In this document: positions 10,901 to 61,829 of the stretch, in pieces
Layout: every line of letters begins with the position of its first letter
Numbering within the stretch: position 1 is the stretch's first letter
DNA from: Eledone cirrhosa
Taxonomy: Eukaryota
DNA length: 64,000 nucleotides
Direction: 5' to 3'
NCBI GenBank assembly: GCA_964016885.1
Contig: OZ024740.1
Coordinates: 283,960,001-284,024,000 of the forward strand
The notes under the pieces: model-generated
What the model was told of the DNA's origin: nothing
The model's database searches: none
What the model saw: only the letters and a program-made list of their open reading frames with translations
Program-made: the position numbers and the translations under genes

Positions 10901-11467
10901 ATGAGCACAGGCTGAAACACACTTACAGTATGCACCACCTTCACATCCACTCACTTCCATTTACCTCCCATATCCTAACATTCCGCCCCTCACACATGCC
11001 CAAATCTCCACACACCTCCCCAGCAAAGTCTCCAGCCAACACTGTAAATGTGGTTGGCGTTAGGAAGGTCATCCAGCTGTAGAAACCAAGCCAAGAGCTG
11101 TTCTGTATGAGCAAGGCATGGTCACTTGACCTGGCATTTCTCACAACAGGACAACTCATCTAACCCATGCTGGTGAGGAAAAATGGACGTTAAACGGTGA
11201 TGATGATGATATATGTATCATCATCATTTAACGTCCATCTTCCATGCTAGCATGGGTTGGACTGCTTTGTCCCACTTGAGGCAAGATTGGTCGGGAGACC
11301 ATGTCTCACCCATACAGAACTGTTTCTGGCAGGTTTTCTACAGCTGGATGCCCTTCTTAACACCAACCACATTTACAGTGTGGACTGGGAGCCTTTTTAC
11401 CGTGTCTCCTACGCGACCACTTTGCAGTGTGGACTGGGTGCTTTTTGTCATGTCACCTACATGACCA

Positions 11468-20357: not shown

Positions 20358-23300
20358 AAGGCGCATGGCTTAGTAGTTAGAGCATTGGGCTTGCAATCGA
20401 AAGGTTGTGAGTTGAATTCTCGGACCGGGTGATGTGTTGTTTCATTGAGCAAGACACTTTATTTCAGATTGCTCCAGTTTACTCAGCTGTAGAAATGAGA
20501 TGATAGGACTGCATTCCACTGCAAAATGGTCGTGGAGGTGCCATGGCAAAAAAAAGCACCCAGCCCACACTGTAAAGTGGACGTGTAGGCTCCACGGAAA
20601 AAAAAGCACCCAGAACTCACTGTAAATGAGGTTGGTGTTAGGAAGGGCATCCAGCTGTAGAAATCGAGCCAGAATCAGTTCCTGTATGAGCAAGACAAGC
20701 TCAGACAACCGGACACTGCTCACAACAGGACAACCCGTCTAACCCATGCACGTAAAACGGTGATGATGAGATATATATATATTTATTTATTAAAATAACA
20801 GATTAAAGTTTAAGCAAAGAATCGCTGCTTTCACCCTCATTATTACTATATATATATATCACCTTGATCCCCTTGACCGACCAGTCTGTCGGGCGCCAAT
20901 CAGCGCCGCTGGTCATAGCATGCCATGCTGTTTTAGGCCGATACAGGCAGCTCTGTAACCCCCTCTTCTACTGCCCTCTACCCTCCGACTCCACACCCCT
21001 CTACCAACAACAAGTTTCCTCCACCATCCAACACCTTGTCTCCTCCCCCCCCCCACTGCTTCCCACCTCATCGTCCGCACCCCCCGCCCCCCTACTATCT
21101 ACTTCCTCCCCAAACTCCACAAACCCGGCCACCCCATCGTCTCCGCTTGCAACTGCCCCACCGAACTCATCTCCGCCTTTCTTGACTCCACCCCCCCTCG
21201 TCACCCCCTCCCCTCCCACATCTCTGACACCAACCACGCCCTTCGCCTGTTCGACTCCTTCACTTTCCCACCCGGCCCACACCCCCTCCTCTTCACCTTA
21301 GATATCAAGTCGCTTTATACTGTCATCCCCCACGCCAACGGCCTACGTGCCCTCAAGCACTACCTCGACCTTCGCCCCTCCCCCCCCCACCCTCCTTCGC
21401 CTCGCCGAGCTGGTCCTCACCCTCAACTGCTTCTCCTTCTCAGGTGAGTTTTACCAACAGGTCACGGGGGTAGCCATCAGCACAAGAATGGGCACAAACT
21501 ATGCCAACCTTTTCGTTGGCCATGTTGAGGCCCAAATCTTTGCCCAGTACACTGGCCCCACGCCCGAACTGTACGGTCGTTACATCGACGACTGTATCAG
21601 AGCCACGACCCTCACCCGAGAACAGCTCGACTCCTTTCTCTCCTTCTTCTGCTCCTTCCACCCCTCTCTCCACTTCACCACCTCTATCTCCACCACCCAC
21701 GTCCACTTCTTAGACATCTCCGTCGACTTCACCTCCTCCCACCCCACACACACTAAACACTCTATTCCCTACTCCCAACTCCTCAGAATCCGCCGCCTCT
21801 GCAGCCGAGATGCTGACTTTGAGTCCCAGGTCCTTTCCCTAGTCAGCCATTTCATCCGCAGAGGTTAACCCCACCTCCCTCCCTCGTCCACACCGCCCTC
21901 ACTCGCGCCCATGCTGTCCCCCGCTCCACCACCCTCACCCCACGCCACCGCACACCCACCCACCATCTCCCCTTCCCCATCACCTACCACCTCTCCACCC
22001 TACCCCTCGACCGCATCATTCTCCGCCTCTTCCGACACCTCCAGTCCGACCCCTCCACCTCCCACACCTTCCCATCCCCATCCTCCCCTCCTTCAAACGC
22101 GCACGCAATCTCCGCACCCTCCTCGTCCGCAGCTCCCTACCCCCCCCAACCCATGCTCTTCTTTCCCCCTCGATTCCCTTCCATGTTCCAGGCCTCGTTG
22201 TAACACGTGCCCCCACATTACCAACAACACCATCTTCCAGGGTCGCAACGGCCACTCTCTCTCTGTCCGGCACGCCTTCCGCTGCACCTCCTCCAACCTA
22301 GTCTATGGACTACGTCGGACAGACTGACGTCTCCTGGCGGACCGTTTCACCGAACACCTCCGGGATATTCGTCTCGGCGGGAGTTCCCCCATCGCCCGCC
22401 ACTTTGGCTCCCCTGGACATTCTGCGCACTACCTCACAGTCTGTGGCCTACTCCAATGCCACGGAACACCCGCCACCCGCCTCACAGTCGAACAACGCAC
22501 CATCTTCACCCTACAGACCCACACTCCCTCCGGCCTGAACTCCCCACCCCTATTCCTTTAGCCTTCGACCGCCCTGTTCCCCCCCCCCCCACTAACACAC
22601 TCCTCCTTTTCACTACCCGCCCCCTTGTCTCACCCCACAACTAACAATACTAACAATACTAACATCCCCACCCCTCCCCCTATCATGCACACACCCACCT
22701 GTGCATATATACAAGCACTCACACTATCCACACACCCTACTACCACCACTCACCCCCACTAACACACCAGCATTCAACCCTTTCTCCACCACCAGTATAC
22801 TAACACCCCCTTCACCACACACACACTCATCCAAACACGCACACACACCAGTACACTACACTCCCTCCACCGTCCCCCACACCTTTTCTCTCCCTCTCCT
22901 CGCTCCACCCACACCCCTTCACACACACCCCTTCACACACACACATCCCACTAACACCTCTACTAATACACACCCCATCCCCCCACATGACCCCCTCCCC
23001 ACTCCACCTTTCACACCTACCCATCCTCTCCCCTGTCCACCGCACCTCCGCACACAGACTCACTGACTTTCTCCACCTGCCATTCTCCTCTACTGCTGCT
23101 ACGCCTTCTCCTGCCTTGACCCTCCGACCACTTCCTGTTGTGTGCACACCCCACATCTCCCCTCTTCCGACCACCACAACCAACGGATTACACACCACCG
23201 GCCATCGTTCCAACTATCCACTCCATAACATGGAAAATATCCGGCAACTCACCACACCCTCTACGGAACTACCTTAGGAACTTACCCAGGGACATACACT

Positions 23301-27900: not shown

Positions 27901-30900
27901 CATAAATTCCCCAAAGGTGAGGAGACTCCAAGGGTTAATCATGGAGAAATCCCACAAAAATCCACGGTCACCATGTCCACTATAGGGCAAAGTGCCTTCT
28001 CCCAGTTGTTCTCCAATCTACAAGAATAAGAATAATGATAATTTGTTTCTGAAATGCTGGTGTTGTTTATGTTTTTGTTTATTGCTATTTTGTGTGTGAG
28101 GATTGTATCTTTTTGTTGGATTTGCTTTTGTTGTTGTTGTGGATGTGGGTTTGGTTTTGTTTGGGATGATCTTGGTGTCAGTTGTGGTGTTAATGGGGCT
28201 AGCTGTGAGGGGTTGATGGTGGTGGTGATGAGGCTTTAGTTTTATTTTATTTTCCAGTTTTGAGTATTCCATTTTGAACTTATTGTTTTGTGCTATATTT
28301 GTGACAATGGCTATATTTGTACTATATTTGACAATGGCTATATTTGTACTATATTTGACAATGGCTATATTTGTACTATATTTGACAATGGCTATATTTG
28401 TACTATATTTGACAATGGCTATATTTGTACTATATTTGACAATGGCTATATTTGTGCTATATTTGACAGTGGCTATATTTGTACTATATTTGACAATGGC
28501 TATATTTGTACTATATTTGACAATGGCTATATTTGTACTATATTTGACAATGGCTATATTTGTACTATATTTGACAATGGCTATATTTGTACTATATTTG
28601 ACAATGGCTATATTTGTGCTATATTTGACAATGGCTATATTTGTGCTATATTTGACAATGGCTATATTTGTGCTATATTTGACAATGGCTATATTTGTAC
28701 TATATTTGACAATGGCTATATTTGTACTATATTTGACAATGGCTATATTTGTACTATATTTGACAATGGCTATATTTGTACTATATTTGACAATGGCTAT
28801 ATTTGTACTATATTTGACAATGGCTATATTTGTGCTATATTTGACAATGGCTATATTTGTACTATATTTGACAATGGCTATATTTGTGCTTTATTTGACA
28901 ATGGCTATATTTGTACTATATTTGACAATGGCTATATTTGTACTATATTTGACAATGGCTATATTTGTGCTATATTTGACAATGGCTATATTTGTACTAT
29001 ATTTGACAATGGCTATATTTGTGCTATATTTGACAATGGCTATATTTGTACTATATTTGACAACGGCTATATTTGTGCTATATTTGACAATGGCTATATT
29101 TGTGCTATATTTGACAATGGCTATATTTGTGCTATATTTGTGACAATGGCTATATTTGTGCTATATTTGACAATGGCTATATTTGTGCTATATTTGACAA
29201 TGGCTATATTTGTACTATATTTGACAATGGCTATATTTGTGCTATATTTGACAATGGCTATATTTGTGCTATATTTGACAATGGCTATATTTGTGCTATA
29301 TTTGACAATGGCTATATTTGTGCTATATTTGACAATGGCTATATTTGTGCTATATTTGACAATGGCTATATTTGTGCTATATTTGACAATGGCTATATTT
29401 GTGCTATATTTGACAATGGCTATATTTGTGCTATATTTGACAATGGCTATATTTGTGCTATATTTGACAATGGCTATATTTGTGCTATATTTGACAATGG
29501 CTATATTTGTACTATATTTGACAATGGCTATATTTGTGCTATATTTGACAATGGCTATATTTGTGCTATATTTGACAATGGCTATATTTGTGCTATATTT
29601 GACAATGGCTATATTTGTGCTATATTTGACAATGGCTATATTTGTGCTATATTTGACAATGGCTATATTTGTGCTATATTTGACAATGGCTATATTTGTG
29701 CTATATTTGACAATGGCTATATTTGTACTATATTTGACAATGGCTATATTTGTGCTATATTTGACAATGGCTATATTTGTGCTATATTTGACAATGGCTA
29801 TATTTGTGCTATATTTGACAATGGCTATATTTGTGCTATATTTGTGCTATATTTGACAATGGCTATATTTGTGCTATATTTGACAATGGCTATATTTGTG
29901 CTATATTTGACAATGGCTATATTTGTGCTATATTTGACAATGGCTATATTTGTGCTATATTTGACAATGGCTATATTTGTGCTATATTTGACAATGGCTA
30001 TATTTGTACTATATTTGACAATGGCTATATTTGTGCTATATTTGACAATGGCTATATTTGTGCTATATTTGACAATGGCTATATTTGTGCTATATTTGAC
30101 AATGGCTATATTTGTGCTATATTTGACAATGGCTATATTTGTGCTATATTTGTGACAATGGCTATATTTGACAATGGCTATATTTGTGCTATATTTGACA
30201 ATGGCTATATTTGTGCTATATTTGACAATGGCTATATTTGTGCTATATTTGACAACGGCTATATTTGTGCTATATTTGACAACGGCTATATTTGTGCTAT
30301 ATTTGTACTATATTTGACAATGGCTATATTTGTGCTATATTTGTGCTATATTTGACAACGGCTATATTTGTGCTATATTTGACAATGGCTATATTTGTGC
30401 TATATTTGACAATGGCTATATTTGTGCTATATTTGACAATGGCTATATTTGTGCTATATTTGACAATGGCTATATTTGTGCTATATTTGACAATGGCTAT
30501 ATTTGTGCTATATTTGACAATGGCTATATTTGTGCTATATTTGACAATGGCTATATTTGTGCTATATTTGACAATGGCTATATTTGTGCTATATTTGACA
30601 ATGGCTATATTTGTGCTATATTTGACAATGGCTATATTTGTGCTATATTTGACAATGGCTATATTTGTGCTATATTTGACAATGGCTATATTTGTACTAT
30701 ATTTGACAATGGCTATATTTGTGCTATATTTGACAATGGCTATATTTGTGCTATATTTGACAATGGCTATATTTGTGCTATATTTGACAATGGCTATATT
30801 TGTGCTATATTTGACAATGGCTATATTTGTGCTATATTTGACAATGGCTATATTTGTGCTATATTTGACAATGGCTATATTTGTGCTATATTTGACAATG

Positions 30901-33316
30901 GCTATATTTGTACTATATTTGACAATGGCTATATTTGTGCTATATTTGACAATGGCTATATTTGTGCTATATTTGACAATGGCTATATTTGTGCTATATT
31001 TGTGCTATATTTGACAATGGCTATATTTGTGCTATATTTGACAATGGCTATATTTGTGCTATATTTGACAATGGCTATATTTGTGCTATATTTGACAATG
31101 GCTATATTTGTGCTATATTTGACAATGGCTATATTTGTGCTATATTTGACAATGGCTATATTTGTGCTATATTTGACAATGGCTATATTTGTACTATATT
31201 TGACAATGGCTATATTTGTGCTATATTTGACAATGGCTATATTTGTGCTATATTTGACAATGGCTATATTTGTGCTATATTTGACAATGGCTATATTTGT
31301 GCTATATTTGACAATGGCTATATTTGTGCTATATTTGTGACAATGGCTATATTTGACAATGGCTATATTTGTGCTATATTTGACAATGGCTATATTTGTG
31401 CTATATTTGACAATGGCTATATTTGTGCTATATTTGACAACGGCTATATTTGTGCTATATTTGACAACGGCTATATTTGTGCTATATTTGTACTATATTT
31501 GACAATGGCTATATTTGTGCTATATTTGTGCTATATTTGACAACGGCTATATTTGTGCTATATTTGACAATGGCTATATTTGTGCTATATTTGACAATGG
31601 CTATATTTGTACTATATTTGACAATGGCTATATTTGTACTATATTTGACAATGGCTATATTTGTGCTATATTTGACAATGGCTATATTTGTGCTATATTT
31701 GACAATGGCTATATTTGTGCTATATTTGACAATGGCTATATTTGTGCTATATTTGACAATGGCTATATTTGTGCTATATTTGACAACGGCTATATTTGTG
31801 CTATATTTGACAATGGCTATATTTGTGCTATATTTGACAATGGCTATATTTGTGCTATATTTGACAACGGCTATATTTGTGCTATATTTGACAATGGCTA
31901 TATTTGTGCTATATTTGACAATGGCTATATTTGTGCTATATTTGACAATGGCTATATTTGTGCTATATTTGACAATGGCTATATTTGTGCTATATTTGAC
32001 AATGGCTATATTTGTGCTATATTTGACAATGGCTATATTTGTGCTATATTTGACAACCGCTATATTTGTGCTATATTTGACAATGGCTATATTTGTGCTA
32101 TATTTGACAATGGCTATATTTGTGCTATATTTGACAATGGCTATATTTGTGCTATATTTGTGACAATGGCTATATTTGTGCTATATTTGGCAACGGCTAT
32201 ATTTGTGCTATATTTGGCAACGGCTATATTTGTGCTATATTTGACAACGGCTATATTTGTGCTATATTTGACAACGGCTATATTTGTGCTATATTTGACA
32301 ATGGCTATATTTGTGATGTCTGTATTGATGTTAGTGAGAATGGGGATAGTGATGACATTGCTATTATTTTAGCTGTTATTCATTTGGCTGTTCTGTTCAG
32401 TGGGTGTAAAGCAGGTGTTTGCCTTCATTTGTAATTTTTTTAAAATCTTGGTGGCACAAATTTCGAATATAAAATTCAAATATTTGTCACCTTTCCAACA
32501 AAAATTATATCAAAACAAGCGTTTTAAAAAGGTAAAAATAATACTTATGAGAGTAAATCCACAACTCCACCACGTGCAAGTAATAATAATAATGATAATG
32601 ATAATCATCATCATTAGAGCAACAGACAAAATATTTTGCACTATTTATTTGGTGCCCTTTATATTCTTAGTTTAAATCCTATTGAGATCCACTTTTCCTT
32701 CCATCATACCAGAGTTGATAGAATGAAATGCCAGTCAAGTACTGGGGTTTATATAATCGACTAGCCCCTTTCCTTAAATTTCTGGCCTTCTGCCATCTGT
32801 TAAAAATTATTACTATTATTATTTATGTATAAGTCCTTTGTGGTTAATAAAAGAAGAGCAGAATGCTAGACTAGAGGCTTTATAGTATTTAGTTATGTCC
32901 CTTCGTGTTCTGGCTTCTAATTCTTTCGGGATGGATTTTTTTTTTCACCTCACTAGGTTTTATAGCCAGATAGTTTACCAAATGCCATTCACTTTAACTA
33001 CAAGTGGAACAGTTATCTATTTTTCATTTAACTCTACTGAGATAGGTAATATCTTGCTCAAAGAAACAATACTATATCTAAGTGTGGTTTGAACCATGGA
33101 TTCAATATTCTAAATCATTTAGTCACCATGCATTTCTATCAGTTCAGCATCAATCTATATACTGAAAATTGCAGTAAGCTAAAATATGTAACAAGAAAAA
33201 AAATACTCTCTTTTTTTTGTGTGTGTATTCATTGTTATACTACTGTCTTTCAGATCGACCCAAATCCTTCAACTCAATCCACCACAGTACGTTTTTTGGA
33301 AGATGGTCATTCATGA
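1834..33316 (+). CDS. ARRDC3: Alpha-arrestin / arrestin domain-containing protein (ARRDC3-like; ARRDC2/3/4/TXNIP group), 5'-partial. join(1834..1981,6164..6266,12868..13008,15888..16003,17236..17443,20000..20145,33254..33316)
   Basis: Manual splicing gives one open frame: GIATSFEGKHGSIRYWLKAEMDKPWAFNHKTKKAFTVISPIDINKPEYQ|IQVENNIEKTLCCWLCPSGPISITARTDRKGYCPG|ESIAISAEFDNWSSRTV...|...KIPAVSPSIMNCCVMKVDYFVK|VALHIPGSYNLTLQLPVVIGTVP...LPPPY...|EPPTYAE...RPPPAYSE|IDPNPSTQSTTVRFLEDGHS*. Motifs TSFEGxHGSxRY, KTLCCW, GYxPGESI, LPxVIGTxP and PPxYSEIDPNP are those of ARRDC3-type proteins. One-to-one orthology is not established. Confidence 0.92.
3446..3647 (+). mobile_element. piggyBac-like MITE (~200 bp)
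   Basis: TTAA-CCCTTTAGCATTTA ... TAAATGCTAAACAG-TTAA: terminal inverted repeats, CCC start, TTAA target duplication. Confidence 0.75.
4701..4903 (+). mobile_element. piggyBac-like MITE copy (another 3' piece at 5271-5330)
   Basis: Same internal sequence as 3446-3647; ends TAAATGCTAAAGGG-TTAA. Confidence 0.75.
6164..6266 (+). CDS. ARRDC3: ARRDC3-like coding exon (103 nt)
   Basis: Acceptor ttcattcag|ATT, donor CCAG|gtcagt; IQVENNIEKTLCCWLCPSGPISITARTDRKGYCP(G). Confidence 0.92.
6870..7305 (+). mobile_element. Decayed RTE-like LINE 3' remnant
   Basis: Degenerate 'IEVAQLRYxxxVVKMPxERIVxQILxxxPTGRxPRxRPPERWxD' reading with stops, followed by a gatggtgatg tail. Confidence 0.5.
8780..9010 (-). 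mobile_element. SINE with Meta-like central domain
   Basis: Reverse complement of GAGTTCAAATCC...TTTCATCCT...GGTCAATAAAATAAAGxACCAGT, as in the copies at 17.8, 26.7 and 48.4 kb. Confidence 0.7.
10066..10830 (-). pseudogene. RTE LINE reverse-transcriptase fragment
   Basis: GVYQGSVLSPLLF and LLYADDLVL RT motifs, then a Cys-rich CSIC...C..C..WVHKRC segment; truncated at (TA)n. Confidence 0.9.
10890..11470. mobile_element. Two RTE/SINE 3' tails in tail-to-tail orientation
   Basis: + copy ends (GAT)n at ~11210; - copy starts (ATC)n at ~11218; shared GGAAGGGCATCCAGCTGTAGAAA and AACCCATGCTAGCATGGAA blocks. Confidence 0.8.
11500..12426 (-). mobile_element. Non-autonomous Helitron
   Basis: Minus strand begins CTATATATAT and ends with hairpin CCCGTGCAACGCTGGG, 8 nt, then CTAG followed by T; internal sub-repeats (~12030-12128 / ~12320-12407) and an ACAG microsatellite. 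Confidence 0.75.
12868..13008 (+). CDS. ARRDC3: ARRDC3-like coding exon (141 nt, arrestin-C domain)
   Basis: Acceptor tttctag|GA, donor ACAG|gtatgt; (G)ESIAISAEFDNWSSRTVTPYASLHQTQAFFANGKSRVRRTKFTVLT(G). Confidence 0.92.
13640..13925 (-). mobile_element. RTE/SINE 3' tail fragment
   Basis: (ATC)n start, then reverse complement of the shared 3' UTR blocks. Confidence 0.75.
15294..15758. mobile_element. hAT (Charlie-like) MITE
   Basis: Termini CAGTATTTCCCAA / TTGGGAAACTG; 8-bp flanking duplication CTATAGAG / CTGTAGAG. Confidence 0.7.
15888..16003 (+). CDS. ARRDC3: ARRDC3-like coding exon (116 nt)
   Basis: Acceptor ttttgtag|GG, donor AAG|gtattg; (G)LPVSPGSGGMWESQLLKIPAVSPSIMNCCVMKVDYFVK. Confidence 0.92.
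15994..16117 (+). repeat. 41-bp tandem repeat x3 spanning an exon/intron junction
   Basis: TTTTGTTAAG|GTATTGCATTCCACCGTTTTATCAGTAATTT; AAG at 16001, 16042 and 16083. Confidence 0.95.
17236..17443 (+). CDS. ARRDC3: ARRDC3-like coding exon (208 nt; end of arrestin-C, first PPxY)
   Basis: Acceptor tttgtag|GTT, donor AAG|gtaagt; VALHIPGSYNLTLQLPVVIGTVPY...LPLPPPYRETVTPPPPFE. Confidence 0.92.
17815..18150 (+). mobile_element. Two adjacent Meta-like SINE copies
   Basis: TCAAATCCCGTCG.GGT.AACTTT.CCTTTCATCCTT.CG..GTCGA occurs at ~17845 and ~18074. Confidence 0.75.
18430..19108 (-). pseudogene. Tc1/mariner transposase relic
   Basis: Minus strand reads SEENVEHI...STVHDVLHK.LKL, FSDEATFHVSEKVNKQ...SQNPH, YQQD and DITPCDFFL*, matching the three DDD/E catalytic regions; has stops and frameshifts. 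Confidence 0.8.
19121..19290. repeat. (TA)n-flanked fold-back element, probable PLE pLTR remnant
   Basis: GC-rich inverted arms 19121-19163 / 19168-19209; unique tail containing ATTGAGTACTC; flanked by (TA)n on both sides. Confidence 0.75.
20000..20145 (+). CDS. ARRDC3: ARRDC3-like coding exon (146 nt; PPTY and PPAY motifs)
   Basis: Acceptor ccttgcag|AA, donor GAG|gtaaat; EPPTYAESVGGAVDIRDEDDDLTCNMGDLTYTPMYTYVYDYRPPPAYSE. Confidence 0.92.
20357..20770 (+). mobile_element. tRNA-derived SINE with RTE-type 3' tail
   Basis: A-box TGGCTTAGTAGTTAG and B-box-like GAGTTGAATTC; central TTGAGCAAGACACTTTA...GCTCCAGTTTACTCAGCTG; 3' part matches the RTE 3' UTR at 330-600. Confidence 0.85.
20945..23890 (+). 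mobile_element. Penelope-like retroelement (Neptune-type), 5'-truncated and frameshifted: RT + Cys linker + GIY-YIG, long C/A-rich 3' region, terminal hammerhead
   Basis: FTLDIKSLYTVIPH, FYQQVTGVAISTRMGTNYANLFVG, YGRYIDD, HTKHSIPYSQLLRIRRLCS, CSRPRCNTC...FRCTSSNLVY, YVGQT, RFTEHLRDI, ARHF; ORF remnant ends at ~22560; element ends at (TA)n. Confidence 0.9.
23773..23810 (+). ncRNA. Minimal hammerhead ribozyme motif of the PLE pLTR
   Basis: CTGAAGA-A-GGG-cttatg-CCC-GAAA-CGTC; stem I is weak. Confidence 0.7.
24020..24530 (+). mobile_element. RTE 3' UTR/tail fragment
   Basis: Repeated CCCAGxCCACACTGTAAAGTGG units and a (GAT)n end. Confidence 0.75.
24545..24878 (-). mobile_element. tRNA-derived SINE (same head as 20357-20770)
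   Basis: Reverse complement of GGCACATGGCTTAGTGGTTAGAGCATTGGCCTTGCAATCGAAAGG...; (GAT)n-like tail. Confidence 0.85.
25251..25286 (-). ncRNA. Degenerate minimal hammerhead motif (PLE pLTR remnant)
   Basis: Minus strand: ctt-CTGATGA-A-GAA-ttaacg-TTC-GAAA-CATT-gag. Confidence 0.5.
25960..26700 (-). pseudogene. Decayed RTE LINE RT fragment
   Basis: Homologous to 10066-10830 (QVSVLSFLLFIIV, TGCLWELL, GKWSCLICRK); many stops. Confidence 0.8.
26710..26890 (-). mobile_element. Meta-like SINE copy
   Basis: ACTGGTACTTTATTTTATCGACC.C..AAGGATGAAAGG.AAAGTTAACCTCGGCG.GATTTGAACTCAG. Confidence 0.75.
27760..32460 (-). mobile_element. Probable decayed non-LTR (L1/Tx1-like) remnant hosting the minisatellite
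   Basis: Minus strand ends AATAAAGAAATCATCATCATC; T/N/K-rich low-complexity reading on both sides of the array; no RT or EN motif seen. Confidence 0.35.
28290..32315. repeat. 27-bp minisatellite (~4 kb, ~148 units) in the last ARRDC intron
   Basis: Unit TGACAATGGCTATATTTGT(G/A)CTATATT, highly homogeneous with few indel variants. Confidence 0.99.
33254..33316 (+). CDS. ARRDC3: ARRDC3-like terminal coding exon with TGA stop
   Basis: Acceptor tctttcag|ATC, phase 0; IDPNPSTQSTTVRFLEDGHS* completes the conserved PPxYSE-IDPNP C-terminal signature. Confidence 0.88.
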   Translation: MDPNPSTQSTTVRFLEDGHS

Positions 33317-39932: not shown

Positions 39933-40760
39933 CATCATCATCATCATCTTCGTTTAATGTCCATTCCCACGCTAGCATGGGTTAGACGGGAGTTGTCCCA
40001 CTTGAGGCAAGGTTGGTCAGGTAACCATGTCTCGCTCATATAGGACTATCTGGCAGGTTTTCTACGGCTGGATGCCCTTCCTAACACCAACCACATTTAC
40101 AGTGTGGAACTGGGAATTTTTTACCGTGTTACCTACATGGCCACGTTACAGCGTGGACTGTTTTTTTCTCATGACACCTACACGATCTCGATCTCATTTA
40201 TTTGGACTGGATGTTGTGGTACCAACTTTATAGAGAGAGGGTGGTGTTGGTGGGAGGATAGGGTAGGGGTAGTGGATTGGGGTGTATATTTGGTTAGGAG
40301 GTGCCTACTGACTGTAGCTTTCGCTTTGTACATAGGCAAGGTGGGTCTTCTGTATTACTGCGTGCTGCCAAAGATCTCGGTCCAGTGACATTGTCTTAGA
40401 GAGGTGCAAGTGTGTAAGGTCGGAATTTATCAGATCGTCCCAGGTTTTTCTGGGTCTACCTACTCTGTAACTACCATCAATTTTGATCGCTCTGCACTTT
40501 TTTATACAGCTGTCGTCTTTCATGCGCATCACGTGGCCATACCAACGTAGTCTTCTCTCGAGTAAACAACATCTGATCCCTCTTATTCCTAATTTCTCAC
40601 TTAGTTCATTTATGCTTTGCCGTTCACGTATATTACTATTACACATCCAACGGAGCATGCATGCTTCGTTCCTTTCCAGTCTACGCAGGTCCTCTGCACG
40701 CAATGCCCATGTCTCACTGCCATGTAGCATTGCTGTTCGTATACAAGCATCATACAATCT
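39933..40760 (-). mobile_element. RTE LINE 3' fragment
   Basis: YDACIRTAMLHGSETW...RRLRWYGHVMRM...GRPRKTW in open frame, then 3' UTR and (GAT)n tail. Confidence 0.9.
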
Positions 40761-43700
40761 GCAATATATAATTGTACTGCTACACCAGTTATTGGGTTTG
40801 ATTCCACCCTGTATTAATCGATTAACTATGTAGGTTATATGTGTTTATATATAGGTATGGTGAAGTGATTAAATTCATAACATTCAATAAAATATTTGTT
40901 TTTCACAAAGGGAAAATAATTAAAGATGAAATATCTACATTGTATTACATAGTATTTTACATGCTGAAAAGTAATACGAGAACAATTCAAAAACAACTCT
41001 TTCGTTTAAGTAATATTTCTTCCTCAAATTTATTAAATTCAAGAAAAACAGAATTGACAATATGAAAAGAGTCTGAGCAGTAGTCAAATATGAGAAACAG
41101 TTGAAAATATCAATGAAGAAACAGTTGAACATTTTTGGGGAAAATAAGTTTAAAGTTTTCGTTAAAAGAGAAAAAGAAAATTTTATTAAAAATGAATGAG
41201 AAAATTTGACAGATTTTTTTTTTTTCATTTCATTTATCATTCATTGCCTGAATTTGTAAATGTATATTTTTAAGTTCACAAAAAAAAAAAAAAAAAAAAA
41301 GAAAAAAAAATATGAAAGAGAATCCATATGGAGAAAGGAAGAGCCTATTGTATCATGATTATTGATTTTATAATCATGTTGATATGGATATTTATAAAAA
41401 CTGAAATAATGAGTTATTAGTATGAATAAGTTACATTTTTCTGGACTAACTAGGGGACTGTTACAGGAATACAACCTATAATAATTTATTCTGAAGACAA
41501 GAAATATCATTATAAATATTCTGTTTTACTTATATATCAAAATGTTATTTGAAATCAATTATTCTGCGAAGAACCACACATGAAAAATAAATCATTCTTT
41601 ATTATGTTGCATATTTAAAGAAGGATATACTTCGGTTTGAAACTGAAATATTCTTTGCCTATATTTAGCAGCTTTAACATAATTTTTTAATCAAAAGACT
41701 GGTTTTATTATAGTCATGAATGTGACATAATTAAGGCATCAACACTTGGAAGAAGAGAAAATAACAGGTTCAAACTTTTTTTTTTTTTTTTTTTTCAAAT
41801 TTAATTTTGTCCATAAACCAATATTTGGAGATGTGGATATGGAAGCTAAAGACGATCATAAAACAAACCATTCTATTGAATTAGTGTCAGAGTTCTTGCA
41901 GTTAGAATTTTTTTAGAAGATTCACTGTAATAAAATTTGTTTTTAAAAAAATTGTCCATACTGTCAAAATGAAATAGATAAAGGCATAACAGTTGGTATC
42001 TGTTTTATGCTAATGTTAGTTAAATTCTTTTTTACCTCAATAAATTACATTATTTCATCCTACATCTGTTTAGCACCATCTATTATGAATAGTAAACTTT
42101 ACTGAGCTTAGTTACAATTAGTTACCATTGTGCTCAGCTGATCTTACATATTAATATGGTTTACTTCTCATAGTTATCTATCTGAAGAATCTTTTTTAAT
42201 TTTTTTTTTCATTTCCCCTGATCATATCTAACTTTAGCAGTATACAATCTACCTGTTTGTGCACTGGGGAGGGAGGAGCTTTCGATGTTCAGGGAAAATG
42301 TTTATTCAAAAACATTACTTATTCTTAAATTCCTGTGCAATATCATAATTAGATCAATAACTGATATGACCAACACTAATTATCAGGAAAATATTACAAC
42401 TTACTACAATACCATACATACATCAATACGCAATTAGTAGTTAGAAACAATGTTTCTTGAAATTACATTTAAAAAATGTTTGCATATGGTTTTATATTGC
42501 AATTAGCTTTTTTATTATTCAATGAATATAAACATTGGCCATCTTCACAGTTAAGTAAAATACATAGTAATAGTCAAAGACCATAATCTGGTTTTTAAAA
42601 AAGGCCATGCAGTTTAGTAGTGTTACTGAAAAAACATTGAAATTTTACAATATATATATATATATATTTAAAAAAAGAATTTGAAAATGGTTTAAGTTTA
42701 AATTTGAAATTTTTAATATTTAGCTGATTTCCAACATTGAAGAAAAAATAATCAGCTTTAAAACTTAGCAAGTTTGTAGTAGTGTTGAAAGTTTGGATGC
42801 TGATAGCAAATGCCTTTTATATAGGGCCAAAATAAGTAGGAAGGGATTTAACAAGCAGAAAGAACTAACTAACAAACATGCTGTCTTGCATGAAATATAA
42901 AATATCACATGTATAGATATAATATCATTTTATATTAATTGCATATTTCCCCTGAAACAAGATGTTTGTTAGTTATTTGTCCCCTATGTAACTACATTCA
43001 ACATAACTACACCATCTTTATCTTTGCATATAACTTATAATATAACCGGTGACTTAGGAAGTCGGTTTTGTGTCTCAAAATTGTCATGCCAAAATTACAA
43101 TGTAAGACAAAGTGGAAACTAAATACCTTTGCATAGAGATGGGAATATTAATTTTTTATATATAGAGCCACTTTGGATTGGTTGTTTCCCCTGATTATCT
43201 GGATTTTTGACAATAAAAAATGTAGAGGCTAAGCTAAAGGTGGAACAGCTTAAAATACAAAGAATTTCAAAATTTACAAATATATTTTGTTAATGCTTAT
43301 AAAATCTAGCTTTCCATAAAACCAATAGTCTGAAGATTAAAACAAAATTTAATAAACTCCCAAAATACCACAGAAGCAACAACATTGACATGATTTATGA
43401 ATTAAAATAAATAAAAATCTAATTACGAAACTACAATGAGGTCACAAGTTCATACCTGGCAAAGCCAAAGAACGCCGATGACAAATTATTTCATTGCTAA
43501 TTATATACTTGCGTCAATTCGATTGCATTCCTTTTTTATTCAGAATGCGTCTTCTATCTAGCTAATGAAATTAGCTATTAAAAGTATTATTAAGGTGACT
43601 AGAGATTAAAAAACTCTCCTTTCTTTAATTGAAGCCATGTACACTATGAAATGAAATTAATGTTACAGATTGTAATTAGGGATTCTGTACATATTGGAGT

Positions 43701-45917: not shown

Positions 45918-46085
45918 AACCAAGACTGAAATTGAACCATCAACACAGTTGAGGTATGTCATACATCAATTTATATATTTTATCTGATGAGGATGTACTG
46001 AAAAAACACCACAGTACCTCTGAAATATATATAATAAAACATATATTTTGAGTACGTGAATGTCTCCATTTATTAATATTTTGAA

Positions 46086-50005: not shown

Positions 50006-50205
50006 NNNNNNNNNNNNNNNNNNNNNNNNNNNNNNNNNNNNNNNNNNNNNNNNNNNNNNNNNNNNNNNNNNNNNNNNNNNNNNNNNNNNNNNNNNNNNNN
50101 NNNNNNNNNNNNNNNNNNNNNNNNNNNNNNNNNNNNNNNNNNNNNNNNNNNNNNNNNNNNNNNNNNNNNNNNNNNNNNNNNNNNNNNNNNNNNNNNNNNN
50201 NNNNN
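50006..50205. other. Assembly gap (200 N)
   Basis: Run of n. Confidence 1.
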
Positions 50206-50360
50206 ATATATTACATATGTAGCATGCCAATTCTAACACATATATGTCCTAGAAACGATCGTTAAATAATGAACTTTTTTTGTTTAATATAAAGAACTGT
50301 TTCATTGTTTTATTCATTATTTTTTTAATGTTTTATATATATATACATATATATATATAC

Positions 50361-51287: not shown

Positions 51288-52029
51288 CATATATACATAC
51301 ACATACACACACACATATATATATATATATATACATACATATATACATATATATATACACACATATATACACATACATACACATATATATACACACATAT
51401 ATATATATATATATATATACATATACACATACATATATATATACACATATACATACACATATACATATATACATATACATATATATACACATACACACAC
51501 ATATACATATATATATACATACACATACACATATACACATACATATATACACATATACATACACACATATATATATATATATACATACATATACACACAT
51601 ATATACACATATATACATACATATATACACACATATATATACACATATATATATATACACAACATAAGATCAAAAGATGGCCAAAGGAGCTCCATGCACC
51701 CCACCATGCGCACCCCAAAAACAAACATCATCATGCAACAACACCCGTGTCTCCATCAGACAAAACAGGAGAACATGATAGCCTTCATATCATGCCCTCC
51801 CGTCCCACCCGACGAAAACACAAACACCACTGCATGACGATGCCCGTCCCCGAAATGCGCACAACAAAACACATGGAACTCCCCCAACCATCCCCCGATC
51901 CCATACTATGTATACTCCAGTCCTACAAACTGTAGAGTGCTTCTTATCCGATATTTGCATTGCTTTATTGTACTACAATAAAACTCACCTCCTACATATA
52001 TATACATATACACACACATACACGAAAAG

Positions 52030-52924
52030 CAGGCCGCACGATGCCCGCACACGAACAGCAATGCCGCATGGCAGCGAGACCTGGGCATTGTGTGCAGAGG
52101 ATATACGCAGACTAGAGAGGAACGAAGCTTGCATGCTCCGCTGGATGTGAAATAGTAATATACGTGAACGGCAAAGCATAAACGAACTAAGGGAAAAATT
52201 AGAAATAAGAGGGATCAGATGTTGTTTACTCGAGAGAAGGCTACGTTGGTATGGTCACGTGATGCGCATGAAAAACGACAGCTGTAGGCAGACCCAGAAA
52301 AAACCTGGGACGACCTGATAAATTCCGACCTCACACACTTACACCTCACCAAGACAATGTCACTGGACCGAGACCTTTGGCGGTACTCAGTAATAGAGAA
52401 GACCCGCCTTACCTAAATACAAAGTAAAACCTACTACAGTCAGTAGGCATCTCTAACAAAATACACCCCCTCCCCCCACCTCCACCCCATCCACACCACC
52501 CCTTTCAATGTAAAGTTATGTTGGTGCCACAACATCCATGCCGAAACAAATGAGATCGTGTAGGTGTCACGACAAAAAAACACACAGTTCCCGCTGTAAT
52601 GTGGCCGTGTAGGCAACACGGTAAAAACCTCCCAGCCCCACACTGTAAATGTGGTTGGTGTCAGGAAGGGCATCCAGCCGCAGAAAACCCACCAGACAGT
52701 CCACGCTGAAATGTGGCCGTGTAGGCAACACGGTTAAAACCTCCCAGCCCCACACTGTAAATGTGGTTGGTGCCAGGAAGGGCATCCAGCTGCAGAAAAC
52801 CCGCCAGACAGTCCCATGCGAGCAAGACAACCACTCCTGCCCCAAATGGGAAAACCCCCGTCCAAACCCACGCAAGCGTGGAACACGGACGCCAAACGCC
52901 GATGATGATGATGATGATGATGAT
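52030..52924 (+). mobile_element. RTE LINE 3' fragment
   Basis: RTAMPHGSETWALCAEDIRRLERNEACMLRWM; close homolog of 39933-40760 in the opposite orientation; internal ~112-bp duplication; (GAT)n tail. Confidence 0.9.
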
Positions 52925-52963: not shown

Positions 52964-53266
52964 TATCACCGCACGTAAAACCATCCTTGAGTTCAACAAT
53001 GAATATTGGACCAGAGCTGATACCTCTAACAACTTCGACATCACAATGGGAGCATCCGATTCATCCCAATTGACAGATTTAATTGGTATCTTTATTTTGA
53101 ACTCTTTGAGTCGGAAAATTCCTCAACTTCGTGGTGGAATTTATCGTGACGATGGACTCTTTACTATCTTAAATTGCAACACAGTTAACCTTAATATTAT
53201 CAAGAACAATATACGTAATCTCTTTAACCAACATAACCTAAAAATTGAATTTGATAACAGCATCAA
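52964..53266 (+). pseudogene. Penelope-like RT core fragment (FDITMG...YRDD type)
   Basis: [15 protein letters not shown]...[26 protein letters not shown]...GGIYRDDGL...[14 protein letters not shown], bounded by TA tracts. Confidence 0.8.
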
Positions 53267-53369: not shown

Positions 53370-53493
53370 GTATATGTATATGTATATATGTATATGTATA
53401 TATATATAATATTTGATAACAGCATCAATATATATACATATATATATGTATATATATATATGTATATATATATATATGTATATGTATATATGT

Positions 53494-54682: not shown

Positions 54683-54880
54683 CATATGTATATATACATA
54701 TACATATATATATATACATACATATATATATATATATATACATATGTAGCATGCCAATTCTAATACATATATGTCCTAGAAACGATCGTTAAATAATGAA
54801 CTTTTTTGGTTTAATATAAAGAACTGTTTCATTGTTTTCATTATTTTTTTAATGTTTTATATATACATATATATATATAC

Positions 54881-56723: not shown

Positions 56724-57208
56724 TGTAAAGTTATATTTAAAATTGTTGGGTTACAATTAAAATTGTTGGGTTACAACTAGTAAATATTTATAACTGATAT
56801 AAAAGCACTCGACAAATATTTGGAGTATATTTACAATATTAAATAAATGGAAAACTATATTTATAAAACCATATTTATTTCATTATATATATTTCGAGGA
56901 TATCATATTAACAATATGCTATGCCTTCATCAGACAAAATACAATATAAACAGTTTTATAGATAAATATATTCGATATACCGTAATAAACATCAACTTCA
57001 TTTGAAGAGGTTTACTCTGCTAGAGTAAACCTCTTCAAATGAAGTTGATGTTTATTACAGTATGTCGAATATATTTATCTATAAAACTGTTTATATTGTA
57101 TTTTGTCTGATGAAGGCATAGCATATTGTTAATATGATATCCCCGAAATATATATAATGAAATAAATATGGTTTTATAAATATAGTTTTCCATTTATTTA
57201 ATATTGTA
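56724..57208. repeat. Fold-back hammerhead element (186-bp arms) in (TA)n
   Basis: Arms 56833-57018 / 57022-57208 around the spacer GCT; one-sided extension 56724-56832. Confidence 0.95.
57099..57164 (+). ncRNA. Type I hammerhead ribozyme (mirror copy on - strand at ~56876-56941)
   Basis: TATTTTGT-CTGATGA-AGG..CATATT-gtt-AATATG..CCCC-GAAA-TATATA-TA|ATGAAATA; 8-bp stem I; predicted cut after 57156. Confidence 0.75.
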
Positions 57209-58543: not shown

Positions 58544-58695
58544 GTAGCATGCCAATTCTAACACATATATGTCCTAGAAACGATCGTTATATAATGAACT
58601 TTTTTTGTTTAATATAAAGAACTGTTTCATTGTTTTATTCATTATTTTTTTAATGTTTTATATATACATATATATATATACATATATATATATAC

Positions 58696-58740
<45 letters not shown>

Positions 58741-58775
58741 TATATACATATATATATATACATATATATATATAC

Positions 58776-58820
<45 letters not shown>

Positions 58821-58891
58821 TATATACAAATATATATACATATATATATACATATATATATATACATATATATATACATATATATATATAC

Positions 58892-58922
<31 letters not shown>

Positions 58923-58971
58923 CATATATATACATATATACATATATATATACATATATATATATATATAC

Positions 58972-59002
<31 letters not shown>

Positions 59003-59063
59003 CATATATATATACATATATATATATACATATATATACATATATATATACATATATATATAC

Positions 59064-59094
<31 letters not shown>

Positions 59095-59233
59095 CATATA
59101 TATATACATATACATATATATATATATACATATATATATATACATATATATATATACATATATATATACATATATATATATACATATATATACATATATA
59201 TATACATATATATATATACATATATATATATAC

Positions 59234-59338
<105 letters not shown>

Positions 59339-59339
59339 C

Positions 59340-59378
<39 letters not shown>

Positions 59379-59437
59379 GATATACATATATACATATATA
59401 TATATATACACATATATATATATATATACATATATAT

Positions 59438-59999
59438 GTAGATAAATCTACCAAGAGTTTACGGTAGTGTCCAATCCGTATGAAGAACTCAATGTAATCC
59501 GGATATCATGGAAAGAAGAGATGCAATGAAAAATCACTTTCGGTGAAAGATAAACGGAATACAGAGTCAAGATAAAATATTAAAAAAATAATGAATAAAA
59601 CAATGAAACAGTTCCTTATATTAAACAAAAAAAGTTCATCATTTAACGATCGTTTCTAGGATATATATGTGTTAGAATTGGCATGCATATTCAACAGATC
59701 TATGTACAAAATTATACAAAATTATACAAACTATCAAAATTAAATATACATACCAAACACATATATATGCCGTCTTCAGAAATAATTATTTCTGAAGACG
59801 GCATATATATGTGTTTGGTATGTATATTTAATTTTGATAGTTTGTATAATTTTGTATAATTTTGTACATAGATCTGTTGAATATGCATGCCAATTCTAAC
59901 ACATATATATCCTAGAAACGATCGTTAAATGATGAACTTTTTTTGTTTAATATAAGGAACTGTTTCATTGTTTTATTCATTATTTTTTTAATATTTTAT
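59438..59999. repeat. Perfect 428-bp palindrome (59572-59999) with one-sided extension, in (TA)n
   Basis: Axis between 59785 and 59786 with no spacer (CTTCAGAAATAA|TTATTTCTGAAG); no mismatch seen by eye. Confidence 0.95.
59786..59932 (+). ncRNA. Type I hammerhead with enlarged stem II (mirror copy on - strand at 59639-59785)
   Basis: TTATTT-CTGAAGA-[116 nt: GG-C-ATATATATGTGTT...AACACATATATAT-CC]-GAAA-CGATCG-TT|AAATGA. Confidence 0.7.
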
Positions 60000-60004
60000 A
60001 TACA

Positions 60005-60082
<78 letters not shown>

Positions 60083-60323
60083 CATATATATACATATATA
60101 TACATATATATATATACATATATATACATATATATATATACATATATATACATATATATACATATATATACATATATATATATACATATATATACATATA
60201 TATATATACATATATATATATACATATATACATATATATATATACATATATATATATACATATATATATATACATATATATACATATATATACATATACA
60301 TATATATATATCCATATATATAC

Positions 60324-60354
<31 letters not shown>

Positions 60355-60355
60355 C

Positions 60356-60402
<47 letters not shown>

Positions 60403-60637
60403 CATATATATATATACATATATATATACATATATATATATACATATATATACATATACATATATACATATATATACATATATATATATACATATATATA
60501 CATATATATATATACATATATATACATATATATATATACATATATATACATATATATACATATATATACATACATATATATACATATATATATATATACA
60601 TATATATACATATATACATATATATACATATATATAC

Positions 60638-60842
<205 letters not shown>

Positions 60843-60995
60843 TATATACATATATATATATACATATATATATATACATATATATATATACATATATATA
60901 TATACATATATATATATACATATATATATACATATATATATATACATATATATATACATATATATATACATATATATATATATATACATATATAC

Positions 60996-61066
<71 letters not shown>

Positions 61067-61121
61067 CATATACATATATATATATACATATACATATATA
61101 TATATATACATATACATATAC

Positions 61122-61168
<47 letters not shown>

Positions 61169-61242
61169 CATATATATATACATATATATATACATACATA
61201 TATATATATATACATATATATATACATATATATATACATACA

Positions 61243-61319
<77 letters not shown>

Positions 61320-61737
61320 ACATATATATATATATACATATATATACATATATATATATACATATATATACATATATATATATACATATATATATATACA
61401 TATATATATACATATATATATATACATATATATACATATATATATATATACATATATATATATACATATATATATACATATATATATATACATATATATA
61501 CATATATATATATACATATATATATATACATATATATATATACATATATATATATACATATACATATATATATATCCATATATATACATATATATATATA
61601 CATATATATATATATACATATATATATATACATATATATACATACATATATATACATATATATATATACATATATATACATATATATATATACATATATA
61701 TACATATATATACATACATATATATACATATATATAG

Positions 61738-61802
<65 letters not shown>

Positions 61803-61829
61803 CACATATATATATATATACATATATAA

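What the first reader, a model, noticed from the sequence alone, without database searches (positions are those of the whole stretch)
59438..59999. Spacerless 428-bp palindrome encoding, on both strands, a hammerhead with a 116-nt stem II
CTGAAGA (59792) and GAAA-CGATCG-TT (59915-59926) are far apart. They are bridged by GG-C-ATATATATGTGTT / AACACATATATAT-CC pairing and closed by stem I TTATTT/AAATGA (AAATAA, a perfect match, in the copies at 50.3 and 54.8 kb). Such a large stem II would be missed by standard descriptors. Stem III is the palindrome ACGATCGT, consistent with dimeric cleavage. The axis coincides with the first base of stem I. The arms look identical, implying very recent origin, gene conversion, or an assembly artefact.
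Basis: partly seen in the sequence, partly recalled or inferred. Interest (0 to 1): 0.75.

Follow-up and report, generated by a model that had tools for sequence, protein, structure and literature searches.

The report
Penelope palindrome with giant-armed hammerhead
This 428-base mirror-image DNA is one of hundreds of identical-layout stubs of a Penelope-like jumping gene; its centre likely marks where the element's capped RNA begins, both halves were likely copied from one RNA, and it carries a hammerhead-ribozyme motif with an unusually long arm whose cutting is untested.

Summary
The palindrome is real (214-bp perfect arms, 59572-59999) and not an artefact. It is the front end of a Hydra-clade Penelope-like retrotransposon (full copy with an 813-aa RT/GIY-YIG ORF elsewhere in the genome), inserted head-to-head in (TA)n with a 134-nt tail: a known layout. 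708 genomic loci share this axis, 194 without spacer. In 43 of 50 such loci one arm is short (214) and one long (348). A non-templated G sits exactly before the axis base in 649 copies (50 and 25 at the neighbouring places), which likely records a 5' cap, so the axis is likely the transcription start, 4 nt inside a 10-bp stem I. Private A-to-G changes cluster in the RNA stems and can be shared by both arms, suggesting one edited, sense, unspliced RNA primed twice. The 116-nt stem II is a family trait, far longer than published Hydra hammerheads, with conserved splice-like signals; cleavage is untested and predicted to be off in this copy. The scan reached the same readings earlier on other families of this genome.

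The parts
59438..59571 (-). 134-nt 'tail': element positions 215-348 (5' UTR, ends about 155 nt before the ORF's ATG in the full copy); ends at the far inferred RT start site, joined to (TA)n
   Evidence: same end in the long arm of 43 of 50 junction loci
59572..59785 (-). Left arm: element positions 1-214 of the pseudo-LTR, continuous with the tail
59785..59786 (.). Axis: head-to-head joint through a 2-nt AT overlap; inferred 5' end (first base A) of the capped transcript, in an initiator-like TTCA+1TT context in intact copies
   Evidence: initiator consensus recalled
59786..59999 (+). Right arm: element positions 1-214; ends at the near inferred RT start site, joined to (TA)n
59785..59933 (+). 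Type I hammerhead motif: stem I 59785-59791 with 59927-59933 (7 bp here, 10 bp in intact context), core CTGAAGA 59792-59798, stem II 59799-59914, GAAA 59915-59918, palindromic stem III 59918-59925, predicted cut after 59926
59638..59786 (-). Mirror copy of the hammerhead motif (core 59779-59773, predicted cut after 59645 on the minus strand)
   Evidence: follows from the perfect palindrome; folded
59799..59914 (+). 116-nt stem II: C.A mismatch next to the core, then about 30 bp of near-continuous duplex and a variable apex (101-116 nt overall across the aligned subfamilies)
59818..59871 (+). Candidate 5'-UTR intron (GTATGT ... CATAG, 54 nt here, 42-54 nt in subfamilies), donor 33 nt after the inferred start; unproven
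   Evidence: GTATGT in 183 of 187 arms, CATAG in 186 of 187; no spliced genomic copy
58662..59437 (.). (TA)n-type microsatellite, left target flank; no target-site duplication can be read
60000..61827 (.). (TA)n-type microsatellite, right target flank
50222..50336 (+). 5'-truncated piece of the same family (positions 100-214), lacks the CTGAAGA core
54749..54860 (+). Second such piece, same breakpoint; likely a local duplication of one insertion
58547..58661 (+). Third such piece, same breakpoint

Best explanation
This is a stub insertion of a Penelope-like retrotransposon with Hydra-clade protein marks, made of two head-to-head copies of the element's front end in a (TA)n tract, likely produced when both cut ends of the target each primed reverse transcription on one capped, unspliced, uncleaved sense RNA and both copies ran to the RNA's 5' end. 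Shown: parent element, recurrence of the axis, the 214/348 asymmetry, the extra G, the A-to-G bias. Inferred steps: (1) an internal promoter starts the RNA at the A of ATTATTT, 4 nt inside hammerhead stem I; (2) the element's enzyme cuts (TA)n on both strands and starts one cDNA at position 348 and the other at position 214; (3) each cDNA runs off the 5' end, often adding a C opposite the cap; (4) the two cDNA ends are joined, here through a 2-nt AT overlap, giving a spacerless palindrome. The hammerhead with its 116-nt stem II is a passenger family trait: it is predicted to be misfolded (off) in RNA that starts at the axis, locked in a 212-bp hairpin in read-through RNA, and able to fold only in the element's 3' repeat, where it would cut weakly and probably as a dimer.
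For: Parent: L036 holds repeat - ORF - 3.3-kb 3' region - repeat - tail - (TA)n, ORF 813 aa from ATG, with RVRWRA, SDKTGN, YRDD, CNCRNKTNC, YIGAT, CxxC and CxH, the marks given for Hydra in PMC8557442 section 11. Copies: 10,120 matches of the 17-nt 5' motif, 6,043 with native upstream bases, controls 0; 708 head-to-head joints at this axis with 0-12 nt between, 194 with none, controls 0. In 43 of the first 50 listed joints one arm ends near 214 and the other near 348; 0 of 50 are 214/214 or 348/348; 7 had one arm unclassed. G directly before ATTATTT: 649; G one place downstream: 50; one place upstream: 25. In 40 of the 649 fetched, 0 had native upstream DNA, and the G stood on arms ending near 348 (16) and near 214 (18) alike. 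An extra G at full-length 5' joints is read as cap copying for L1 (PMC11702581, passage). Arms need not overlap (L044, L121, L138), so they are separate cDNAs. Private sense-strand changes in 187 arms: A>G 17 vs T>C 2 in the stems, 5 vs 17 downstream, Fisher p 2.5e-5; A>G shared by both arms 7 of 17 vs 14 of 98 for other changes, p 0.015; three such changes occur exactly twice in the genome, in the two arms of one insertion 8.1 kb apart. Joints of an axis arm to the region of the cleavage site: 8. In vitro, a Penelope protein cuts and extends both strands, starts at two internal sites and uses uncleaved RNA (PMC11167929). Predicted stem I probability 0.00-0.04 for RNA starting at the axis vs 0.26-0.64 with 30 nt upstream, 9 of 9 intact copies. 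Raw reads of another study show an opposite-strand joint at the axis (14 reads, 2 starts); contigs of two more studies show the same loose end.
Against: No RNA was seen, so the start site, cap, editing, splicing and cleavage are all read from DNA footprints. In 10 of the 40 G-start loci the G could come from the partner arm reading two bases further. 8 of the 14 two-armed A>G changes in stems are on one arm only, and selection for G.U on low-copy source elements, or conversion between arms, could give part of the pattern. The window's own joint has no extra G and no private change, and a zero-spacer joint with identical arms is equally what fold-back copying would give. Only one pair shows a change on both sides, and that count does not beat shuffles (476 of 500). 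Folding energies ignore dimers, tertiary contacts and protein help. No tree against published Hydra sequences was built; Pfam found nothing on the ORF. The raw-read joint rests on only 2 read starts and is not this locus.
Confidence: 0.75

Rival explanations
1. Same element, but the second arm arises by fold-back self-priming: one cDNA (or an antisense template) hairpins at the axis and is copied back, as proposed for head-to-head Penelope palindromes.
For: 194 perfectly spacerless joints; arms within a locus differ at only 60 of 9,879 aligned places; shared private changes are expected from fold-back too; proposed in PMC3846280 (passage).
Against: Non-overlapping or differently truncated arms (L038, L044, L121, L138, L031-L035); extra G on both arm classes and on both arms of single joints (spacer TCTGA); A>G, not T>C, on the sense strand; fixed end at 214.
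Confidence: 0.15
2. The hammerhead structure or its cleavage sets the axis: the enzyme stalls or turns at stem I, or copies cleaved RNA.
For: The axis is within 7 nt of the catalytic core in all 708 loci (the pattern was built on that place).
Against: The axis lies 4 nt inside the 5' strand of stem I, the side reached last by reverse transcription; a position-specific extra G is not explained by a stall; joints at the cut site are 8 against 708, and at most one begins exactly there.
Confidence: 0.06
3. The palindrome is an assembly or library artefact (fold-back chimeric reads), or a local gene-conversion product.
For: Arms are identical; the locus lies between long microsatellites and 9 kb from a 200-N gap; no long read over this very locus could be seen.
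Against: 708 loci on many contigs, ten joint lengths among 50, subfamilies 70-100% alike, each with the same asymmetric ends; same joint in short reads and contigs of three other studies.
Confidence: 0.02
4. On the ribozyme alone: it is a dead relic, and the long stem is kept for another job (intron, promoter or protein binding), not for cleavage.
For: C.A mismatch next to the core; misfold predicted at the 5' copy; no footprint of cleaved RNA; PLE hammerheads cut poorly in vitro (PMC4209133).
Against: CTGAAGA intact in all 186 arms shown of 187 and GAAA in all 182 shown; position 17 varies only between T and A; stem III palindrome kept; mismatches next to the core are common in published Hydra hammerheads (U.U, U.C; C.A in PLE-X1_cBra).
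Confidence: 0.35

Closest known systems
Hydra clade of C-terminal EN+ Penelope-like elements (Craig et al. 2021, PMC8557442: passages, sections 11 and 15, supplement part 2 of 59)
   Same: RW-type motif, DKT, CxCx5C linker, CxxC and CxH around the endonuclease end, C-terminal GIY-YIG, (TA)n targets, type I hammerhead with a mismatch next to the core; inverted 5'-truncated copy and a one-sided tail as described for Penelope-like elements in general.
   Different: Unit 6.2 kb with a 3.3-kb repeat-rich 3' region (Hydra 'generally short, <3 kb'); stem II region 101-116 nt, while the Hydra rows of File S2 are a few tens of nt at most; tail 134 nt against 30-40; its hammerhead differs from that listed for Hydra-1_oBim, so it is another family.
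PAc (Poseidon of Anolis) in vitro mechanism (Frangieh et al. 2024, PMC11167929: parts 1-2 of 4)
   Same: Two internal start sites that define the tail, both target strands cut and extended, AT-rich target, uncleaved RNA as template.
   Different: Other clade; start sites here lie 134 nt apart in the 5' UTR, not in the ORF; the parts read do not deal with how the two cDNAs are joined or with a cap-derived G.
Penelope of Drosophila virilis (Schostak et al. 2008, PMC2377424: passages)
   Same: Internal promoter with initiator in the pseudo-LTR, short 5'-UTR intron soon after the start (75 bp, 46 bp downstream), inverted terminal repeats, intron kept in copies.
   Different: There the intron ends at helix I of the hammerhead (PMC4209133); here the candidate intron lies inside stem II and is shorter (42-54 nt) and unproven.
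Minimal and palindromic-stem-III hammerheads of metazoan PLEs (Cervera and De la Pena 2014, PMC4209133: parts 1-2 of 4)
   Same: Type I, short palindromic stem III, predicted dimer, motifs found close together on opposite strands.
   Different: Helix II there is 6-8 bp; here about 30 bp plus apex.
Discontinuous Clec2 hammerhead (via review PMC6765202: passage)
   Same: A hammerhead split by a large insertion can still cleave.
   Different: Mammalian 3'-UTR, not a retroelement; insertion of several hundred nt; activity shown there, not here.

Membership tests
EN+ Penelope-like elements | Single ORF with RT and GIY-YIG endonuclease between pseudo-LTRs | tested here: met
   L036: 813 aa, YRDD and YIGAT motifs, flanked by two copies of the repeat; 14,123 relatives at E<=0.001, unnamed; Pfam gave no hit
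EN+ Penelope-like elements | Partial tandems, inverted 5'-truncated copy, tail at one end | tested here: met
   tail is 134 nt, longer than the 30-40 nt reported
EN+ Penelope-like elements | Internal promoter and start site in the pseudo-LTR | tested here: inconclusive
   Indirect only: truncation hot spot and extra G; no RNA
EN+ Penelope-like elements | Retained 5'-UTR intron (optional) | tested here: inconclusive
   Conserved GTATGT and CATAG; no spliced copy; no splice joint in eight laid runs, none on record as RNA
Hydra clade | RWK-like motif, DKT, CxCX5C linker, CxxC and CxH near the end | tested here: met
   RVRWRA (K replaced by R), SDKTGN, CNCRNKTNC, CRLCSQE, CNH
Hydra clade | C-terminal endonuclease, (TA)n targets | tested here: met
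Hydra clade | Short element (<3 kb) and hammerhead of canonical size | tested here: not met
   Unit 6,211 nt; stem II 101-116 nt. These are general traits in the paper, not the clade's definition
Hydra clade | Placement with published Hydra RTs on a tree | not tested
   No named reference sequences were held; membership rests on motifs
Type I hammerhead ribozyme | Core CUGANGA, GAAA, NUH | tested here: met
   triplet GUU or GUA
Type I hammerhead ribozyme | Three helices with pairing kept across copies | tested here: met
   99.2% of 1,219 cells pair, slid controls 18-61%; only one two-sided change; many one-sided changes may be editing marks
Type I hammerhead ribozyme | G10.1-C11.1 pair next to the core | tested here: not met
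   C.A mismatch in the register that holds in 36 of 36; similar mismatches are listed for Hydra and PLE-X1 hammerheads
Type I hammerhead ribozyme | Self-cleavage | not testable with these tools
   Needs an in vitro assay or RNA ends
Non-LTR retrozymes | Tandem monomers, each with a hammerhead, no coding partner | tested here: not met
   Two inverted stubs of a coding element, no tandem monomers; definition from 10.64898/2026.07.22.740005 part 1 of 5

The most novel reading that the evidence does not exclude
Thousands of genomic stubs of this family record the whole Penelope insertion cycle: one capped, ADAR-edited, unspliced sense RNA is primed twice, at two fixed sites, from both ends of a (TA)n break, and the giant stem II is the promoter-proximal intron folded into the ribozyme, which with the start site inside stem I makes a switch that keeps the 5' hammerhead off and the 3' one on.
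Probability: 0.3. Interest if true: 0.8.

Novelty: new variant of a known kind. Interest (0 to 1): 0.5.

Why it matters
How Penelope-like elements build their inverted ends, and whether they copy a sense or an antisense, spliced or unspliced RNA, was left open in PMC3846280 (discussion) and named as a next task in PMC8557442 (section 15). This family gives countable DNA footprints on that question (fixed 214/348 asymmetry, cap-like G, sense-strand A-to-G marks shared by arms) and names exact places for 5' RACE and in vitro tests. A hammerhead with a 116-nt stem II in about 10,000 copies also shows that size-limited descriptors miss large ribozyme families. The palindrome itself is a known product, and this single locus is an ordinary young copy.

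Tried and rejected
Rfam scan of the window: only microRNA-like matches to TA repeats and the hairpin among the 150 listed of 229, no hammerhead. Pfam on two ORFs: 0 families. The repeat finder was swamped by microsatellites. Naiad clade, considered from the YRDD context: rejected, the endonuclease is C-terminal. Spliced genomic copies: 0 matches genome-wide, 0 of 187 arms. Sequencing runs: no RNA holder listed; two Hi-C runs gave only 4 and 7 poor reads; four contig runs showed no GT..AG joint; none of this bears on expression. Joints at the hammerhead cut site: 8 loose matches, not a hot spot (only joints to an axis arm within 12 nt were asked). Literature searches for a published cap-G, twin-priming or ADAR reading in Penelope-like elements, or for a long stem II, found none in the held library; most subscription papers are not held, Lunse et al. 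2017 was not held, and only part 2 of 59 of the Craig supplement was read, so a long-stem variant may be in print. Rows dropped: alignment A1 uses 36 of 63 distinct hammerhead variants (near-duplicates and copies with deletions or duplications left out by hand); the 50 junction loci are the first 50 listed of 708, all on one contig; the 40 G-start loci are 40 of 649; the substitution count used 187 arms from 110 of 116 loci given. A first count on 136 arms gave A>G 13 vs T>C 2 in stem II.

Full report
Observation. The palindrome is exact: 214-bp arms at 59572-59999, centre between 59785 and 59786. The left arm carries a further 134 nt (59438-59571), and both ends run into (TA)n. The genome is a 3.0-Gb animal assembly; earlier scan notes call it octopus, which I did not test.

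Parent element. Searching the genome with the 348-nt left unit gave 54 matches from 40 of 133 candidates. One locus, L036, holds a whole element: repeat, about 155 nt more of 5' UTR, an 813-aa ORF, a 3.3-kb repeat-rich 3' region, repeat, tail, (TA)n; unit 6,211 nt. The protein has RVRWRA, SDKTGN, YRDD, CNCRNKTNC, YIGAT, CxxC and CxH, the marks of the Hydra clade in Craig et al. 2021 (PMC8557442, section 11), whose members insert in (TA)n. Inverted truncated copies and a one-sided tail are described there as typical, head-to-head palindromes in PMC3846280 (passage). No tree with named Hydra sequences was built.

Not an artefact. The 17-nt 5' motif occurs 10,120 times, 6,043 times with native upstream bases. 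708 loci have a head-to-head joint at this same axis, 194 without spacer; reversed-pattern controls 0. Among the first 50 listed, joints have ten different lengths and the arms belong to subfamilies 70-100% like the window copy, yet arms within a locus differ at only 60 of 9,879 places. Raw reads of another study show an opposite-strand joint at the axis (14 reads, 2 starts), and contigs of two further studies end in the mirrored sequence there. This very locus was not seen in long reads.

Asymmetry. In 43 of 50 loci one arm ends near 214 and the other near 348; none has two equal ends; 7 had one arm unclassed. This matches two internal start sites of reverse transcription, one per target strand, as shown in vitro for the lizard element PAc, which extends both strands and uses uncleaved RNA (PMC11167929). 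Longer insertions have arms truncated at unrelated points, and in L044, L121 and L138 the arms do not overlap, so neither was copied from the other.

The axis. Intact copies read TTCATTATTT before the core, pairing with AAATGATGAA: stem I has 10 bp and the axis lies 4 nt inside it. A G directly before ATTATTT, where the element has C, occurs 649 times; a G one place to either side 50 and 25 times. In 40 such loci fetched none had native upstream DNA; the G stood on long arms (16) and short arms (18); in 10 it could also come from the partner arm. An extra G at full-length 5' joints is read as cap copying for L1 (PMC11702581, passage), and D. virilis Penelope starts at an initiator in its pseudo-LTR (PMC2377424, passages); the TTCA+1TT context fits an initiator (consensus recalled). 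I infer that the axis is the capped 5' end. Joints of an axis arm to the predicted cut site number 8, so cleaved RNA left no clear footprint.

One edited RNA. A lead from note e1-10323346 was tested here. Private changes in 187 arms: A>G 17 against T>C 2 in the stem I and II strands, 5 against 17 downstream (p 2.5e-5); A>G changes are shared by both arms in 7 of 17 cases, other changes in 14 of 98 (p 0.015). Three such changes of L032 occur exactly twice in the genome, once in each arm, 8.1 kb apart. The simplest reading is editing of the folded sense RNA by ADAR (substrate preference recalled) before both arms were copied. Against: more than half of the two-armed A>G changes are on one arm only, and selection on rare source copies or conversion between arms could contribute.

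The hammerhead. On 36 of 63 distinct variants, 99.2% of cells pair, slid controls 18-61%; one pair changes on both sides (A-U to G-C, 7 rows), which alone does not beat shuffles. Mismatches there are usual in the published Hydra table, whose stem II regions are a few tens of nt at most; two other families in this window have 31 nt. Position 17 is T or A, and stem III stays palindromic; two copies pair through it at -13.8 kcal/mol. Because one-sided A>G changes may be editing marks, they show that the duplex forms, not that it is selected for cleavage. GTATGT (183 of 187) and CATAG (186 of 187) bound a 42-54 nt candidate intron 33 nt after the inferred start, like the D. virilis 5' intron, but no spliced copy exists, so it is unproven. 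For RNA starting at the axis, stem I is predicted almost never to form (0.00-0.04) because the core pairs with TAGAAA; with 30 nt upstream it forms at 0.26-0.64, in 9 of 9 copies. Read-through RNA forms a 212-pair hairpin at -322.8 kcal/mol. Both hammerheads at this locus are therefore predicted to be off.

Verdict. A real, young, ordinary-layout stub of a Hydra-type Penelope-like element; a new variant through its 116-nt stem II, 134-nt tail and 6.2-kb unit. The mechanistic footprints make an open question testable, but no RNA or bench evidence was available. My reading of element, axis and cap was written before I opened the scan's notes; those notes show the same readings on other families of this genome and long stems in other genomes, and none on this sequence. 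Searches of the held library found no paper with the cap-G, double-priming or editing reading for these elements; coverage is incomplete.

Noticed in passing
window 56728-57198: A second head-to-head palindrome (joint near 57019-57021) of another family, with a hammerhead motif of 31-nt stem II and TATATA-type stem III on both strands, in (TA)n.
   Followed up: partly
window 45918-46084: A further hammerhead-bearing stub (core at 45984, 31-nt stem II) between microsatellites.
   Followed up: partly
window 52969-53261: RT fragment 48% identical to residues 289-386 of the L036 protein: a piece of another Hydra-type family, its end duplicated at 53408-53423.
   Followed up: partly
window 16411-16488: 38-bp perfect palindrome with a 2-nt spacer.
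   Followed up: no
window 28000-32400: Long tandem array of a roughly 33-nt unit giving repetitive open frames.
   Followed up: no
window 20800-22650: Broken C-rich RT-like frames (RYIDD, PYSQ motifs) that look like another Penelope-like element (recalled resemblance).
   Followed up: no
window 10204-10950, 40305-40844, 51782-52150: LINE-like RT fragments (recalled resemblance to RTE-type elements).
   Followed up: no
window 50006-50205: 200-N assembly gap just before the first truncated copy.
   Followed up: no
L036:4234-6672: The protein has an asparagine/lysine-rich stretch between RT thumb and endonuclease linker, recalling the N-rich inserts described in rotifer Penelope elements (PMC3846280).
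   Followed up: no
L042:4762-6918: Another long Hydra-type frame (719 aa, 39% identical to L036) close to a copy of this family.
   Followed up: partly
L052, L068, L075, L082, L094, L114, L117: Joints with short repeated pieces of the element's first 10-25 nt, as if the enzyme jumped back to the RNA's 5' end several times.
   Followed up: no
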